Of a stretch of DNA of 64,000 bases, positions 4,550 through 7,639 are shown piece by piece. Numbering within the stretch: position 1 is the first letter of the stretch; each line of letters begins with the position of its first letter. The stretch is from an uncultured Lachnospiraceae bacterium (GTDB taxonomy: Bacteria > Bacillota > Clostridia > Lachnospirales > Lachnospiraceae). Below the pieces are notes generated by a model. The model saw only the letters and a program-made list of their open reading frames with translations. It was not told the origin of the DNA and ran no database searches. The DNA lies in the NCBI GenBank assembly GCA_946414885.1, contig CAMKQH010000015.1, forward strand, positions 32,881 to 96,880, read 5' to 3'. Position numbers and translations under genes: made by a program.

Positions 4550-7500
4550 CTAAATCTCATAATCATCTTCAAGAAAATCTACATCTGGAATTATCTCTGA
4601 TTCCCCTTGGTTTTCATCAGCGTTCTCTTTCATTTTATCTTTAAGGCGACATAAATACTTGTCACGCGGTTGAAGAATCTCCGCCTTTTCAATATACTCT
4701 TGAGCCATTTCGAATTGTTTACACCTAATAAGCATATCTATATATGTGCATATGTAATATGTATTAGACATATCTAATTCGCAAGCTTGTTTACAATAAT
4801 CTTTTGCTTTTTCAACATTCTGATATCTATAAGCTTTTGCAAAAGCAAATTTTATTTTTGCTTTCTCCCAAGGCAAGTCATTATTATACCGTTCGCAAAT
4901 ATGTTCCGCCTCTTTTGCATACTCTATAGACAAATCTATATAATTGCGATTATTTGATAAAGCTATAGAATAATCTGCCCAGATAAATGCTCCTCTAGAA
5001 TTTTTCTTCGCTGCCATTTCAAAAAATTCTTTAGATTTCACCAAGCTAACATTATCCGTGTCTAATATGTAGCAAATTGCTATTCTTAACAGAATATCAT
5101 ATCTGACATCACCCAATGCATCATAAATCATTATGTAGTATTGCAGTGCGTTCTTGTAATTCTTATCTTTATATAATCTATCTGCGTTAGGCTTTAATTC
5201 ATCTATATAGCGACTCTTATATCGATTGAGCTTTTGTATCTGCAAACTACCTCCTAAATGATATATCAAATTAGCAAGAACAGATGGATCTTGTCTAGAA
5301 GGCGATGAACTATTCATCCCTTCAAAATATTTCACATATTTTTCATGAACGCCGAACCTAACACTCACATCCATATCAGTATAGAACACCTCACTAAACA
5401 ACGGATGAAGTCTAAGCTTTCCTTGGCTTTTCTCAATAATCAACCTACTGGAAAGACTCTCTAAGCAGTAACTTAGGTGCGGATAATATTTTTCCATAAA
5501 ATCCGAATATACCTCTCCCTTCGAAACCGCTATAATCTCGAGGAATTCTTTTTCATCTGATGTAAACTCTATTTCTTCAATAATATTTTTTATGAGGCCC
5601 TCTTGATATCGTTTGAATTCCTGACCATTTAGTTGAATTTCTGTTCCATCTTTTTGTACTATTAACTGCGCTATAAGAATAGCTGCAAGGGGATTTCCAT
5701 ATGCAGCTTGTATTATTTCCTCAGCTATTTTAGGTGCAGTTGTCCGTTTTGTAATCTTCTTATAGCAATAAGAAATAATAGAACGAATTGTATCATTATC
5801 CAATTTGGATACTTCGATGGTATTCGAAGATACCTGAGCAAGATCTCTCACCCGTCTATTACTGGAAAAAATGGTTTTTATATTCTCATACTGATCCAAG
5901 CATTTCAATAGTGTAACGAAAAATTCTTTTACTCTTGAGTCTGAAAAAAAACCATTATTATTCAAACAATGATGAAAATCATCAATGACCATAACAAGTG
6001 GAGCAATATTACTTATTTGTTTTGCATATTGACTTGCGATTTCTGAAGGCGACTTCTCATTCGTTTCAATGTAACTCAATCCCAAATCGTATGAGATTCT
6101 CTCCAAAATATATTCATATCCAATTCCTAATGAAAATCGAATTATTCTTATGTTCCACATTGAGTCTGGCGGAAGAATCTCATTTTCTATCGAGCTGATC
6201 AATTTTGTTTTGCCAATTCCTCTTAAACCATTTATAAAAAGTAATTTTTCACTATTGCTATCAAAAAATTGGGACAGTGTATTTTTTTCCGGATCCCGCC
6301 CTCTAAATAATCCTTTGTCATTAGAAAAGTCTGGTTCATTTGTCCCCATGGCTTTCTTAGTGCTATTCACATACGAAATAAGACACTCAAGCGACATCGA
6401 ATAATGCTCATCAGAAAGACCTAATTCCGCTCTTTTTATTAGCATTTCTTCCGCCTTACAGACTTGATTATTTATCATTTGCTGATAGTCACAAGTGTTA
6501 ATCTTCACATAATCAAGGCATGTTGATAAAGAATCCTCATCTAGGATACCTTGTTGTTCATCATGCTGGAGTCTCTTAATTACCGTTCCAATAATAGACT
6601 CTTTTGCATGAACATGACTACTTAACTCACATACCGATTGGTTTTTAATACAATGTTTAATTTGTTCCATCAATTCATTGTCTGCTTCTTTTTCCCTATA
6701 CAGCAATGGCAAAACCTCATTCAATTCAATAGCCCGTGGTAATAAAGCCGTTCCAACAGAATATCTCATAGCATCAACATCTAAAGTTGCAGTTACTAAT
6801 GCCTCGCAACCTTTGGGAATAGGCGAAGAATTAACACCTTCCACAAACCAATGTTTTCCTTCAGTAGCGTATGGTCCCGATATAACTGATCCACCATAAT
6901 TCGCTATATTAACATAAATTACAGGTATTTCTTTATACTTTGCCAAGATCTGTAGCGCTCTGAAAGGCTCTATGTTATGTGATAATGATGGAATCACTAG
7001 AATATTTTTATCGCAGTCGGCAACAGTTTCCGTATCCACTAGTGCTTCTATGCATACTTTTATTGTCAGCGTGTAATCCCCCATATCAAAAACATCGCTA
7101 ACAGGTTCCTTCGGGATCTTTATATCATTGCGTTCTGCTGAGGCCAAAAATTTTTTAAAACTATAATGTCTTATTTTACCGTCTTGAATAATGGGAACCA
7201 TCGCACATCTTTTATAATTCTTGATTTCTGGATAGCCTTCTGGTAATTTTGTTACATTTTCAGTAACCATGTGCGTACCTGCCACAATACAGATATTGGT
7301 ATTCTTCGTCATATTGCAAACATCATTCAATAATTCAGCCGGGATAGAGTATTCTGGAAATACTAACAAATCAACATTTAATTTTATAGATTTCTCAATG
7401 ATGGCTTTTATTTTCGCTCGAAGCCAACTCAAATAATCCTCGAGAAGTTCACTAGAAATTCTTGGCGCTCCTCTAAACTCCATTAAACTTATTGATGTAT

Positions 7501-7639
7501 GTTTTTCCCTAAAGGAAGAATAGAGCGGTTCAACCAATAAATTATGTGAATCTAAAATAACTGCCGGCTTATAATAGATTTGCGCGAATGCAATTTTTAC
7601 TTTTCTCATATTTTGTATATATGGTGTTGATAACAACAC
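4550..7639 (-). CDS. nitrilase/C-N hydrolase - STAND (NB-ARC-like) NTPase - TPR fusion; NLR/Avs-like putative defence protein
   Basis: nitrilase triad motifs LLVFPEYS / YSFKK / KVCIE; Walker A GLRGIGKT, Walker B VIDDFH, GNPLAA (GxP), LRLHPLF (MHD-like); C-terminal TPR-like helices; AAGGAG RBS before the GTG/TTG start. Confidence 0.85.
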   Translation of the reverse strand: MLLSTPYIQNMRKVKIAFAQIYYKPAVILDSHNLLVEPLYSSFREKHTSISLMEFRGAPRISSELLEDYLSWLRAKIKAIIEKSIKLNVDLLVFPEYSIPAELLNDVCNMTKNTNICIVAGTHMVTENVTKLPEGYPEIKNYKRCAMVPIIQDGKIRHYSFKKFLASAERNDIKIPKEPVSDVFDMGDYTLTIKVCIEALVDTETVADCDKNILVIPSLSHNIEPFRALQILAKYKEIPVIYVNIANYGGSVISGPYATEGKHWFVEGVNSSPIPKGCEALVTATLDVDAMRYSVGTALLPRAIELNEVLPLLYREKEADNELMEQIKHCIKNQSVCELSSHVHAKESIIGTVIKRLQHDEQQGILDEDSLSTCLDYVKINTCDYQQMINNQVCKAEEMLIKRAELGLSDEHYSMSLECLISYVNSTKKAMGTNEPDFSNDKGLFRGRDPEKNTLSQFFDSNSEKLLFINGLRGIGKTKLISSIENEILPPDSMWNIRIIRFSLGIGYEYILERISYDLGLSYIETNEKSPSEIASQYAKQISNIAPLVMVIDDFHHCLNNNGFFSDSRVKEFFVTLLKCLDQYENIKTIFSSNRRVRDLAQVSSNTIEVSKLDNDTIRSIISYCYKKITKRTTAPKIAEEIIQAAYGNPLAAILIAQLIVQKDGTEIQLNGQEFKRYQEGLIKNIIEEIEFTSDEKEFLEIIAVSKGEVYSDFMEKYYPHLSYCLESLSSRLIIEKSQGKLRLHPLFSEVFYTDMDVSVRFGVHEKYVKYFEGMNSSSPSRQDPSVLANLIYHLGGSLQIQKLNRYKSRYIDELKPNADRLYKDKNYKNALQYYIMIYDALGDVRYDILLRIAICYILDTDNVSLVKSKEFFEMAAKKNSRGAFIWADYSIALSNNRNYIDLSIEYAKEAEHICERYNNDLPWEKAKIKFAFAKAYRYQNVEKAKDYCKQACELDMSNTYYICTYIDMLIRCKQFEMAQEYIEKAEILQPRDKYLCRLKDKMKENADENQGESEIIPDVDFLEDDYEI

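What the first reader, a model, noticed from the sequence alone, without database searches (positions are those of the whole stretch)
4550..7639. NLR/Avs-like STAND protein with an intact nitrilase (C-N hydrolase) effector domain
Seen: the N-terminal ~300 aa carry the Glu-Lys-Cys triad contexts (FPEYS, FKK, VCIE), followed by an NB-ARC-like NTPase (GLRGIGKT at ~6208-6232, VIDDFH, GNPLAA, LHPL) and TPR-like helices. Known: nitrilase domains are required modules in DRT type 1 (RT-nitrilase) defence, and Avs effectors are typically nucleases, SIR2, TIR, proteases or PNP. Inference: oligomerisation-activated amidase that depletes a metabolite or cofactor (for example a nucleotide or NAD precursor) on sensing a phage protein.
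Basis: partly seen in the sequence, partly recalled or inferred. Interest (0 to 1): 0.8.

Follow-up and report, generated by a model that had tools for sequence, protein, structure and literature searches.

The report
Nitrilase-armed NLR-like STAND protein
This single gene encodes a protein built like an innate-immune receptor (repeat sensor, ATP switch, enzyme output) whose output is a carbon-nitrogen hydrolase of the type so far tested only in the DRT1 reverse-transcriptase anti-phage system; it is probably an untested variant of a known immune design, and its chemical target is unknown.

Summary
ORF 4550-7639 (-) encodes about 1020 aa in three parts. The N-terminal domain has a nitrilase-superfamily fold, and its Glu96-Lys162-Glu169-Cys196 tetrad is kept in about 180 homologue clusters. 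The central part is an NB-ARC/Apaf-1-type STAND NTPase with Walker A, Walker B, GxP and LHP motifs. The C-terminal part is a ~250-aa TPR-like solenoid.

The enzyme domain is missed by Pfam CN_hydrolase. It matches PADLOC's DRT-associated nitrilase models, and its only significant PDB sequence hit is DRT1 (9yfd).

Relatives are rare and patchy across Bacillota, Acidobacteriota and Chloroflexota. They have no conserved partner gene. They often lie beside integrases, conjugative elements or restriction-modification genes, twice directly after a type I R-M operon. The neighbouring Schlafen and 274-aa genes are not conserved partners.

A defence role is inferred from architecture and context only. 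The trigger and the substrate are unknown.

I found no paper in the held library that describes a nitrilase-STAND fusion. This scan has noted the same architecture in at least seven other genomes.

Verdict: a new variant of a known kind (an Avs/NLR-like sensor with a new effector). Interest is moderate to high.

The parts
4550..7639 (-). Whole ORF, 1029 codons from GTG 7639, stop at 4550-4552. Alternative starts are TTG 7636 (the database gene call, 1028 aa) and ATG 7606 (where all homologues begin).
7644..7647 (-). GGAG ribosome-binding site, 4 nt before GTG 7639 and 7 nt before TTG 7636
   Evidence: sequence read directly
6692..7606 (-). Nitrilase-superfamily (C-N hydrolase) domain, aa 12-316. 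Contains a low-confidence insert at aa ~26-58 that carries the invariant Glu37-Pro38.
   Evidence: PADLOC DRT nitrilase models; PDB profile hit to DRT1 9yfd; AF2 model; Foldseek top 50 all nitrilase superfamily
7352..7354 (-). Catalytic Glu96 (FPEYS)
   Evidence: invariant in 24/24; E in 179 of 180 aligned clusters
7154..7156 (-). Catalytic Lys162
   Evidence: invariant; K in 180 of 180
7133..7135 (-). Second catalytic Glu169, 7 residues after the Lys as in the nitrilase tetrad
   Evidence: invariant in 24/24; E in 167 and D in 6 of 179
7052..7054 (-). Catalytic nucleophile Cys196 (VCIE). Aligns with the Cys of the ICYDA motif in DRT1; the DRT1 paper names C1116 as the catalytic Cys.
   Evidence: C in 177 of 178
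6305..6691 (-). Helical linker, aa 317-445. The most variable part of the protein.
   Evidence: AF2 secondary structure; per-domain identity
5804..6304 (-). P-loop nucleotide-binding domain, aa 446-612. FRGRD pre-P-loop motif at 6287-6307, Walker A GLRGIGKT at 6206-6229, Walker B VMVIDDFH at 5972-5995.
   Evidence: Pfam NB-ARC and nSTAND6; invariant R448, G471, G474, G476, K477 and near-invariant D553
5645..5803 (-). Helical domain 1 (ARC1-like), aa 613-665, with the GxP motif GNPLA at 5684-5698
   Evidence: (G648 and P650 invariant)
5375..5644 (-). Winged-helix domain (ARC2-like), aa 666-755, with the MHD-like LHPL at 5399-5410
   Evidence: (H745, P746, L747 at 90% or more)
4610..5374 (-). 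TPR-like alpha-solenoid, aa 756-1010, about 12 helices; presumed sensor
   Evidence: AF2 model; Foldseek hits to 6mfv and consensus TPR proteins; strong Pfam TPR hits in distant homologues
4553..4609 (-). Disordered acidic C-terminal tail, aa 1011-1029. An acidic tail is present in most close homologues.
   Evidence: pLDDT below 50; alignment

Best explanation
The gene encodes a stand-alone, NLR-like (STAND) conflict or anti-phage sensor whose output is a DRT1-type nitrilase-superfamily hydrolase.

Proposed mechanism:
1. In the resting state the NB-ARC module keeps the protein monomeric.
2. A trigger binds the C-terminal TPR-like solenoid. The trigger is most likely a phage protein, but its identity is unknown.
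3. This allows nucleotide-dependent oligomerisation of the NOD.
4. Oligomerisation brings the N-terminal nitrilase domains together into the dimer or higher oligomer that nitrilase-superfamily enzymes need for catalysis.
5. The Glu-Lys-Glu-Cys site then hydrolyses a C-N bond, probably an amide, in an essential metabolite or protein. This stops growth of the infected cell.

Shown here: the three-domain architecture, the folds, the intact and strongly conserved catalytic and NTPase motifs, the kinship of the enzyme domain with DRT nitrilases, the single-gene organisation, and the patchy distribution with frequent mobile-element or R-M association.

Inferred: immune function, trigger, activation by oligomerisation, substrate and abortive outcome.
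For: Architecture and folds.

Catalytic competence under selection: E96, K162, E169 and C196 are invariant in 24 homologues down to 19% identity. They are kept in about 177-180 of 180 cluster representatives.

Kinship with a validated defence effector:
- PADLOC RTasNitrilase E 1.7e-10, RT_UG5-nitrilase 3.2e-9 and Drt1a 5.9e-5.
- Pfam CN_hydrolase is absent for this protein and sub-threshold in 6 of 19 relatives.
- A profile of the domain hits only DRT1 (9yfd) significantly in the PDB, E 4.6e-5, with the Cys and the N-x4-GGS motif aligned.

The domain behaves as a modular N-terminal effector. Of 183 clusters, 107 have a STAND NTPase behind it. Others carry pentapeptide+WD40, HerA/TraG-like ATPase, NACHT or cyclase+AAA_16+TPR.

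Contexts:
- No conserved partner gene in 63 loci.
- Close relatives sit next to integrases, serine recombinases or IS elements (L001, L002, L004, L014), inside a conjugative element (L003), next to a type II R-M (L001), or inside a defence island with OLD/AAA_15, DUF1156-DUF499 and a Gp49-HTH pair (L005).
- The gene directly follows hsdR-hsdM-hsdS on the same strand in two very divergent relatives: L015 (58% identity) and L024, Halanaerobium kushneri (23%).
- In the window it lies in a low-GC island (0.33-0.36 against ~0.50) with a Gp49/HTH pair, a transposase fragment, DUF3800 and a Schlafen gene. Close homologues of that Schlafen gene lie after N6_Mtase-HsdS beside AbiE in a mobilisable element.

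Distribution is patchy across Bacillota, Acidobacteriota, Chloroflexota and Halanaerobium.

Literature: DRT1's nitrilase is its effector, and the paper states that nitrilases require homo-oligomeric assembly for activity (PMC13275509).
Against: There is no experimental evidence for any member.

The protein hits none of the Avs models in PADLOC v2.

The TPR region is as conserved as the enzyme: 67% against 72% within the close clade, and 44% against 45% in the next. So there is no arms-race signature in the presumed sensor, which is also short (~250 aa).

No relative was found in IMG/VR viral contigs, PLSDB plasmids or INPHARED phages.

Among 13 further genomic neighbourhoods, mostly of the distant clade, the gene content is heterogeneous. 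It includes transporters, kinases, sporulation and surface proteins. Defence enrichment was not tested statistically.

Fusions of the same enzyme domain to a receiver domain, a cyclase and an IF-2B-like domain show that it is also used in settings that could be ordinary signalling.
Confidence: 0.6

Rival explanations
1. A non-immune, ligand-gated metabolic or signalling enzyme. The STAND-TPR module senses a cellular metabolite or peptide and switches on an amidase for nitrogen metabolism, detoxification or signalling. This would be analogous to MalT/AfsR-type STAND regulators, with an enzyme in place of the DNA-binding output.
For: The TPR region is conserved as strongly as the enzyme. The same nitrilase domain is fused to a receiver domain, to a cyclase+AAA_16+MalT-like TPR, and to IF-2B-like domains. 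Several neighbourhoods are housekeeping. No relative is found in phages or plasmids.
Against: Distribution is rare and patchy across phyla. There is no conserved metabolic neighbour. The gene repeatedly sits next to R-M genes, integrases and conjugative elements, and lies in a low-GC island. Its closest enzyme relatives are DRT defence nitrilases rather than metabolic nitrilases.
Confidence: 0.2
2. The STAND protein is the third component of an obligate three-gene system with the upstream 274-aa (HEPN-motif) and Schlafen/AlbA_2 genes at 7718-9868. This was proposed in another first-stage note.
For: All three genes lie on the same strand. There is a 9-nt gap between the first two and 78 nt before the STAND gene. 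No terminator-like site lies between them, and a strong terminator (10018-10061) plus promoter-like sites lie upstream of the first gene. In Blautia a 62-64% identical homologue of the 274-aa gene is again followed by an AlbA_2 gene and then a third, different gene encoding Peptidase_C14.
Against: None of the 63 loci fetched by that point, about 30 of which hold full-length nitrilase-STAND relatives, contains a homologue of either neighbour at tblastn E <= 1e-3. The neighbours are more widespread than the STAND gene (61 and more than 268 clusters against 41) and occur without it. The P0002-type Schlafen also occurs without the 274-aa gene.
Confidence: 0.08
3. A conflict gene that targets something other than phages, for example plasmid or ICE exclusion, or an addiction module that stabilises the mobile element carrying it.
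For: It lies inside a conjugative element between T4SS genes and the MobL relaxase in Desulfocucumis. In other genomes it is next to serine recombinases, ParAB and IS elements.
Against: No cognate antitoxin-like partner is conserved. It was not found on any PLSDB plasmid. The tripartite STAND design is best known from sensors of phage proteins (PMC13581612).
Confidence: 0.1

Closest known systems
Nitrilase effector domain of class 3 UG/Abi reverse transcriptases: DRT1/UG1 (PDB 9yfd), RT_UG5-nitrilase and RT-associated nitrilases
   Same: It is the closest detectable relative of the enzyme domain (PADLOC E 1.7e-10 to 5.9e-5; PDB profile hit E 4.6e-5). It shares the Glu-Lys-Glu-Cys tetrad and a C-x-[DE] ... 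N-x4-GGS signature. In DRT1 the nitrilase is the effector, needs oligomerisation, and its substrate is unknown (PMC13275509).
   Different: There is no reverse transcriptase, alpha-repeat or protein-primed DNA adduct. The enzyme is N-terminal rather than C-terminal, so the DRT1 C-terminal lid that regulates its nitrilase site has no obvious equivalent. Control would come from a STAND NTPase.
Antiviral STAND proteins (Avs/AVAST, e.g. Avs5 SIR2-STAND-TPR, Avs7 Cap4-STAND-TPR) and bacterial NACHT (bNACHT) proteins
   Same: Single polypeptide with an N-terminal enzymatic effector, a central STAND NTPase and a C-terminal alpha-repeat sensor. Single-gene organisation in variable or mobile regions. 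Activation by oligomerisation is established for those families (abstracts).
   Different: No hit to any Avs model in PADLOC v2. The NTPase is of the NB-ARC/nSTAND6 type. The sensor is short (~250 aa). The held papers on these families that I read do not list a nitrilase as effector. No trigger is known.
Apaf-1 / CED-4 / plant NLR NB-ARC modules, and the archaeal STAND-TPR protein PH0952 (PDB 6mfv)
   Same: They are the best structural matches of the NBD-HD1-WHD(-TPR) part. The Pfam NB-ARC match covers profile positions 8-245 of 248. GxP and MHD-like His motifs are present.
   Different: The effector is different: CARD, CC or TIR there against a nitrilase here. Sequence identity is only 12-15%.
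Amidase branches of the nitrilase superfamily (Pyrococcus PH0642 amidase 6ypa, NadE glutaminase domain 5kha, yeast Nit3 1f89, N-carbamoylputrescine amidohydrolase 5h8i, Nesterenkonia amidase)
   Same: Same alpha-beta-beta-alpha fold and catalytic residues.
   Different: Identity is 11-17% and TM-score only 0.43-0.60. The domain falls below the Pfam CN_hydrolase threshold. It has a ~30-aa insert with an invariant Glu-Pro, and it is fused to a STAND switch.

Membership tests
Nitrilase (C-N hydrolase) superfamily | Alpha-beta-beta-alpha sandwich fold | tested here: met
   AF2 model with pLDDT 77.7 and pTM 0.83. All top 50 PDB Foldseek matches are nitrilase-superfamily enzymes, E 1.5e-10 to 2.4e-8, probability 1.00.
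Nitrilase (C-N hydrolase) superfamily | Catalytic Glu-Lys-Cys triad plus second Glu | tested here: met
   E96, K162, E169 and C196 are invariant in 24 homologues and kept in about 167-180 of 180 cluster representatives.
Nitrilase (C-N hydrolase) superfamily | Match to Pfam PF00795 CN_hydrolase at the curated threshold | tested here: not met
   No hit for this protein at E <= 1. Only 6 of 19 relatives hit, best E 0.0019. Membership therefore rests on the fold, the catalytic residues and the DRT nitrilase profiles.
Nitrilase (C-N hydrolase) superfamily | C-N bond hydrolysis | not testable with these tools
   Needs an enzyme assay.
STAND NTPase, NB-ARC / AP-ATPase type | Profile match above the curated threshold | tested here: met
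   PF00931 NB-ARC: 36.4 bits (cut-off 23.5), E 4.3e-9, profile positions 8-245 of 248. PF25201 nSTAND6: 31.5 bits (cut-off 27.7).
STAND NTPase, NB-ARC / AP-ATPase type | Walker A, Walker B, GxP and winged-helix His motifs, and NBD-HD1-WHD order | tested here: met
   GLRGIGKT, VIDDFH, GNPLA and LHPL are conserved. The full-length model matches 6mfv, Apaf-1, CED-4, Dark and plant NLRs.
Avs (antiviral STAND) families as modelled in PADLOC-DB v2 | Match to an Avs family model | tested here: not met
   At E <= 0.1 the PADLOC scan returned only DRT nitrilase models and a weak mad8 hit.
Avs (antiviral STAND) families | Effector-STAND-repeat sensor in a single protein | tested here: met
Avs (antiviral STAND) families | Anti-phage activity triggered by a phage protein | not testable with these tools
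   Only context evidence is available.
DRT1 / class 3 UG-Abi reverse transcriptases | Reverse transcriptase domain | tested here: not met
   No RT family among the Pfam hits. PADLOC matches are confined to the nitrilase part of the DRT models.
DRT1 / class 3 UG-Abi reverse transcriptases | DRT-type nitrilase domain | tested here: met
Proposed three-gene system (274-aa protein + Schlafen + STAND) | Conserved co-occurrence of the three genes | tested here: not met
   No homologue of P0002 or P0003 in the 63 loci fetched by that point, about 30 of them with full-length STAND relatives. Both neighbours occur without the STAND gene.

The most novel reading that the evidence does not exclude
DRT1-type nitrilases are a general, portable immune effector that prokaryotic NLR-like switches (NB-ARC, NACHT, giant WD40 and pentapeptide proteins) deploy by induced oligomerisation. 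On this reading the effector kills or arrests the cell through a C-N hydrolysis chemistry not yet described in immunity, for example deamidation of an essential amide-bearing cofactor, nucleotide precursor or protein. Because the STAND version is a simple one-protein switch, it would be the easiest route to finding the long-sought substrate of the DRT1 nitrilase.
Probability: 0.45. Interest if true: 0.75.

Novelty: new variant of a known kind. Interest (0 to 1): 0.6.

Why it matters
Effectors of bacterial NLR-like sensors described so far are mainly nucleases, NADases (SIR2, TIR), proteases and membrane disruptors. The DRT1 paper states that nitrilases are not common in anti-phage systems and that its substrate is unknown (PMC13275509).

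This family puts the same kind of enzyme under a well-understood switch. That offers three things:
- A second, independent case for nitrilase-based immunity.
- A tractable system for finding the substrate: activate the protein with a trigger or by forced oligomerisation, then measure metabolites.
- An explanation for why such proteins are annotated only as 'hypothetical' or 'TPR repeat protein'. The enzyme domain falls below Pfam's CN_hydrolase threshold, so surveys that rely on standard domain profiles may miss it.

Tried and rejected
- Single-sequence phmmer of the N-terminal domain against the PDB found nothing. A family profile was needed.
- Pfam and NCBIfam give no name to the enzyme domain.
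- I looked for relatives on viral contigs (IMG/VR), plasmids (PLSDB) and phages (INPHARED). None were found.
- BFVD holds only one viral look-alike, a cyanophage P-SSM2 CN hydrolase, which is not informative.
- I tested whether the TPR 'sensor' evolves faster than the rest, as an arms-race signature. It does not; the linker at aa 317-445 is the variable part.
- I tested the three-gene hypothesis and rejected it as an obligate system.
- A pooled Pfam/PADLOC tally of 133 neighbour ORFs from 13 genomes gave a heterogeneous picture: kinases, MADS, N6_Mtase, integrase, and also transporters. It had no control, so it is reported only descriptively.
- Literature searches for nitrilase together with STAND NTPase, NACHT, NLR/Avs or conflict systems found no description of this fusion. 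The supplementary effector table of the 2026 STAND survey (PMC13581612) is not held, so it could not be checked.
The window's whole genome and any expression data could not be examined.
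Full report
OBSERVATION

The minus strand of 4550-7639 holds one uninterrupted ORF of 1029 codons counted from GTG 7639. A GGAG at 7644-7647 lies 4 nt before that GTG and 7 nt before TTG 7636, which is the start used by the gene call on record (P0005, 1028 aa). All homologues begin at the position of Met12, ATG 7606, so the first 10-11 residues are uncertain. They are also disordered in the model.

WHAT THE PARTS ARE

(i) N-terminal enzyme domain, aa 12-316.
- Pfam and NCBIfam do not name it, and a single-sequence search of the PDB finds nothing.
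- PADLOC's models of the nitrilase modules of defence-associated reverse transcriptases match aa 76-262: RTasNitrilase E 1.7e-10, RT_UG5-nitrilase 3.2e-9, Drt1a 5.9e-5.
- A profile built from 19 family members (A2) has one significant hit in the PDB. It is the nitrilase domain of DRT1 (9yfd, residues 1082-1212, E 4.6e-5). The catalytic Cys motif and an N-x4-GGS motif are aligned.
- An AlphaFold2 model of the domain (pLDDT 77.7, pTM 0.83) retrieves only nitrilase-superfamily enzymes among its top 50 PDB matches. These include archaeal amidase 6ypa, the NadE glutaminase domain, Nit2/Nit3, N-carbamoylputrescine amidohydrolase, vanin and beta-ureidopropionase, at E 1.5e-10 to 2.4e-8.
- Glu96, Lys162, Glu169 and Cys196 are invariant in 24 homologues down to 19% identity. 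These four form the nitrilase tetrad, with the second Glu 7 residues after the Lys.
- In 188 sequences aligned to the domain profile, the non-gap residues are E 179/180, K 180/180, E 167/179 (plus 6 D) and C 177/178.
- Family-specific invariant positions are His123, Asn244, Gly249-Gly250-Ser251, Glu279 and a Glu37-Pro38 pair. That pair lies in a ~30-aa insert that the model cannot place.
- Only 6 of 19 members reach Pfam CN_hydrolase at all, best E 0.0019. This explains the 'hypothetical' and 'TPR repeat protein' annotations.

(ii) Helical linker, aa 317-445. It is the most variable part.

(iii) STAND NTPase, aa 446-755.
- Pfam NB-ARC scores E 4.3e-9, 36.4 bits against a cut-off of 23.5, over profile positions 8-245 of 248. 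nSTAND6 scores 31.5 bits against 27.7.
- The FRGRD pre-P-loop motif, Walker A GLRGIGKT, Walker B VIDDFH, GNPLA (GxP) and LHPL (MHD-like) are conserved.

(iv) TPR-like solenoid, aa 756-1010, about 12 helices, followed by a disordered acidic tail.

The full-length model (pLDDT 81.9) matches the archaeal STAND-TPR protein 6mfv (E 2.6e-13), Apaf-1, Dark, CED-4, SAMD9 and many plant NLR resistosomes. Separately it matches nitrilase amidases and consensus TPR proteins.

THE FAMILY

The word-indexed search found 41 relatives. About 22 are full-length proteins of 972-1026 aa at 33-62% identity. A more distant clade of ~1040-1140 aa at 21-24% identity has strong TPR signatures and the same N-terminal domain.

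An exhaustive profile search with the enzyme domain alone found 1,360 clusters at E <= 1e-3, 622 at <= 1e-10 and 187 at <= 1e-30. I classified 183 clusters: the 150 best-scoring ones plus the relatives.
- 107 have a STAND NTPase after the nitrilase.
- 7 are ~1,900-2,000-aa proteins with pentapeptide and WD40 repeats.
- 9 are unclassified ~2,200-2,400-aa giants.
- 5 carry an IF-2B-like domain.
- 2 carry a HerA/TraG-like ATPase.
- 1 carries a receiver domain.
- 1 carries a nucleotide cyclase plus AAA_16 and MalT-like TPR.
- The rest are short and mostly look like fragments.

The domain is thus a portable N-terminal module whose main partner is a STAND switch.

A pattern scan of one genome per species found 47 loci. 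Full-length relatives occur in Bacillota (Desulfocucumis, Halanaerobium, Hydrogenoanaerobacterium, Eubacteriales), Acidobacteriota/Terriglobia, Chloroflexota and Dehalococcoidales. Enzyme-domain-only matches occur in Myxococcota, Planctomycetota and a haloarchaeon. This is a lower bound because it depends on two peptide patterns. No relative occurs in IMG/VR, PLSDB or INPHARED.

CONTEXT

In the window the gene lies in a low-GC stretch (0.33-0.36 against ~0.50 further on). The host is probably a Lachnospiraceae bacterium: a 666-aa histidine kinase at 61234-63234 clusters at >=90% identity with one from a Lachnospiraceae MAG.

Nearby genes are:
- a Gp49(HigB-like)/HTH pair (250-800);
- a transposase HTH fragment;
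- a DUF3800 gene;
- a Schlafen/AlbA_2 gene (7718-9034);
- an unnamed 274-aa gene (9044-9868);
- a truncated nucleotidyl-transferase remnant (10087-10665, profile positions 105-243 only), closed by a strong terminator at 10018-10061.

Nine independent neighbourhoods of relatives were read:
- L001: integrase, IS110, a type II R-M and IS21/Mu transposases.
- L002: three serine recombinases.
- L003 (Desulfocucumis): inside a conjugative element, between T4SS genes and the MobL relaxase.
- L004: integrase, IS91, DUF4238, DUF2726 and ParAB.
- L005: a defence island with an OLD/AAA_15 protein, DUF1156-DUF499, AAA_15+PDDEXK and a Gp49-HTH pair directly upstream.
- L008: PDDEXK_5 and BrnTA.
- L011: a DUF1016 nuclease.
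- L014: integrase and DUF4238.
- L015: 15 nt after hsdR-hsdM-hsdS on the same strand.

The same position, 79 nt after hsdR-hsdM-hsdS and followed by an integrase fragment, recurs in Halanaerobium kushneri (L024), whose protein is only 23% identical. Other neighbourhoods are ordinary, for example L018 and L030. A pooled tally of 133 neighbour ORFs from 13 genomes is heterogeneous. I did not have a control for enrichment, so the association with defence and mobile elements is suggestive rather than demonstrated.

THE NEIGHBOURS ARE NOT PARTNERS

Another first-stage note proposed a three-gene system. The three genes could well be co-transcribed: same strand, gaps of 9 and 78 nt, and no terminator-like site between them. 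However:
- No homologue of the Schlafen gene, the 274-aa gene or the downstream ORF occurs in any of the 63 loci fetched by then, about 30 of which hold full-length STAND relatives.
- Both neighbours are more widespread than the STAND gene, with 61 and more than 268 clusters.
- In Blautia a 62-64% identical homologue of the 274-aa gene is followed by a divergent AlbA_2 gene and then a Peptidase_C14 gene where the STAND gene sits here.
- 49% identical homologues of the Schlafen gene follow N6_Mtase-HsdS next to AbiE in a mobilisable element, without the 274-aa gene.

So the window's 4.5-9.9 kb block reads as a small defence-type island of separable modules. This in itself supports a conflict role for the STAND gene.

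MECHANISM

STAND proteins with this three-part layout act as ligand-triggered, nucleotide-dependent oligomerisation switches. In bacteria several families sense phage proteins and activate N-terminal effectors by bringing them together (abstracts and text). Nitrilase-superfamily enzymes need homo-oligomeric assembly for activity. [quoted passage not shown]

The most economical model has three steps. A trigger binds the TPR region. The NB-ARC module oligomerises. The nitrilase domains assemble and hydrolyse an essential C-N bond. The best structural matches are amidase branches rather than true nitrilases, so an amide is the more likely substrate. Nothing here identifies it.

Two points count against a classical arms-race sensor. 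The TPR region is as conserved as the catalytic domain, and it is short. This fits recognition of a conserved fold, but also a non-immune ligand.

I put 0.6 on the immune sensor-effector model, 0.2 on a non-immune ligand-gated enzyme, about 0.1 on another kind of conflict role, and under 0.1 on an obligate three-gene system.

COMPARISON AND NOVELTY

The protein works like an Avs/bNACHT-type single-protein sensor. It is not a member of the Avs families modelled in PADLOC v2, and it is not a DRT because it has no reverse transcriptase.

Full-text searches for nitrilase together with STAND NTPase, NACHT, NLR/Avs or conflict systems found no description of such a fusion. The 2026 survey of 589 STAND clades does not mention nitrilase or hydrolase in its main text, and its effector table is not held. 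The DRT1 paper calls nitrilases uncommon in defence.

I therefore rate it a new variant of a known kind. This scan has already noted the same architecture in at least seven other genomes, with follow-up reports reaching similar conclusions. My tests here agree with them independently.

- the recurrent placement after type I R-M operons;
- the census of partner domains;
- the family signature shared with DRT1;
- the lack of sensor hypervariability;
- the rejection of the three-gene reading.

LIMITS

There are no experimental data. There is no multimer modelling and no statistical test of defence association.

Noticed in passing
window 7718-9868 (-); L064 5001-8716: The 274-aa unnamed gene followed by a Schlafen/AlbA_2 gene recurs in Blautia. 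There the 274-aa homologue is 62-64% identical and the AlbA_2 gene is divergent. The third gene in Blautia is a Peptidase_C14 (caspase-like) gene where the nitrilase-STAND gene sits here. This may be a two-gene module with a variable downstream cargo slot.
   Followed up: partly
L067/L068 1851-6260: 49% identical homologues of the window's Schlafen protein directly follow N6_Mtase and HsdS (2-nt gap), next to AbiEi/AbiEii, in a mobilisable element with Mob_Pre and an integrase. The 274-aa gene is absent there.
   Followed up: partly
window 10018-10665 (-): A truncated nucleotidyl-transferase ORF (Pfam profile positions 105-243 of 245 only) is followed by a 20-bp-stem terminator at 10018-10061. 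It looks like a gene remnant marking the edge of the low-GC island next to the rhamnose/mannose sugar-nucleotide genes.
   Followed up: no
window 250-800 (+); L005 9026-9732: A Gp49(HigB-like)/HTH_3 toxin-antitoxin-type pair lies in the same island. A pair of the same two families sits directly upstream of a distant nitrilase-STAND relative inside a defence island.
   Followed up: no
P0140, P0146, P0121 (IF-2B); P0078 (receiver); P0110, P0151 (HerA/TraG-like); P0162, P0163 (pentapeptide+WD40); P0176 (cyclase+AAA_16+TPR): The same DRT1-type nitrilase domain is the N-terminal module of several other architectures in other genomes. These include ~770-aa fusions to an IF-2B-like (sugar-phosphate-binding fold) domain and ~2,000-aa pentapeptide-WD40 giants.
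   Followed up: partly
window 7526-7537 (aa 35-38) and 6887-6910 (aa 244-251): There are two family-specific invariant features of unknown role. One is a Glu37-Pro38 pair inside a ~30-aa insert that AlphaFold cannot place. The other is an N-x4-GGS motif shared with the DRT1 nitrilase.
   Followed up: no
window 7623-7640: A 7-bp-stem hairpin (GGTGTTG ATAA CAACACC) overlaps the GTG and TTG candidate start codons of the STAND gene. It could limit translation initiation.
   Followed up: no
window 4553-4609 (aa 1011-1029): A disordered, strongly acidic C-terminal tail with aromatic residues is present in most close homologues. Its role is unknown.
   Followed up: no
window 12389-18433 (-): A 2014-aa protein with Big_2, Listeria-Bacteroides repeat and C-terminal CAP domains, at ~50% GC. 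It is probably a cell-surface protein.
   Followed up: no
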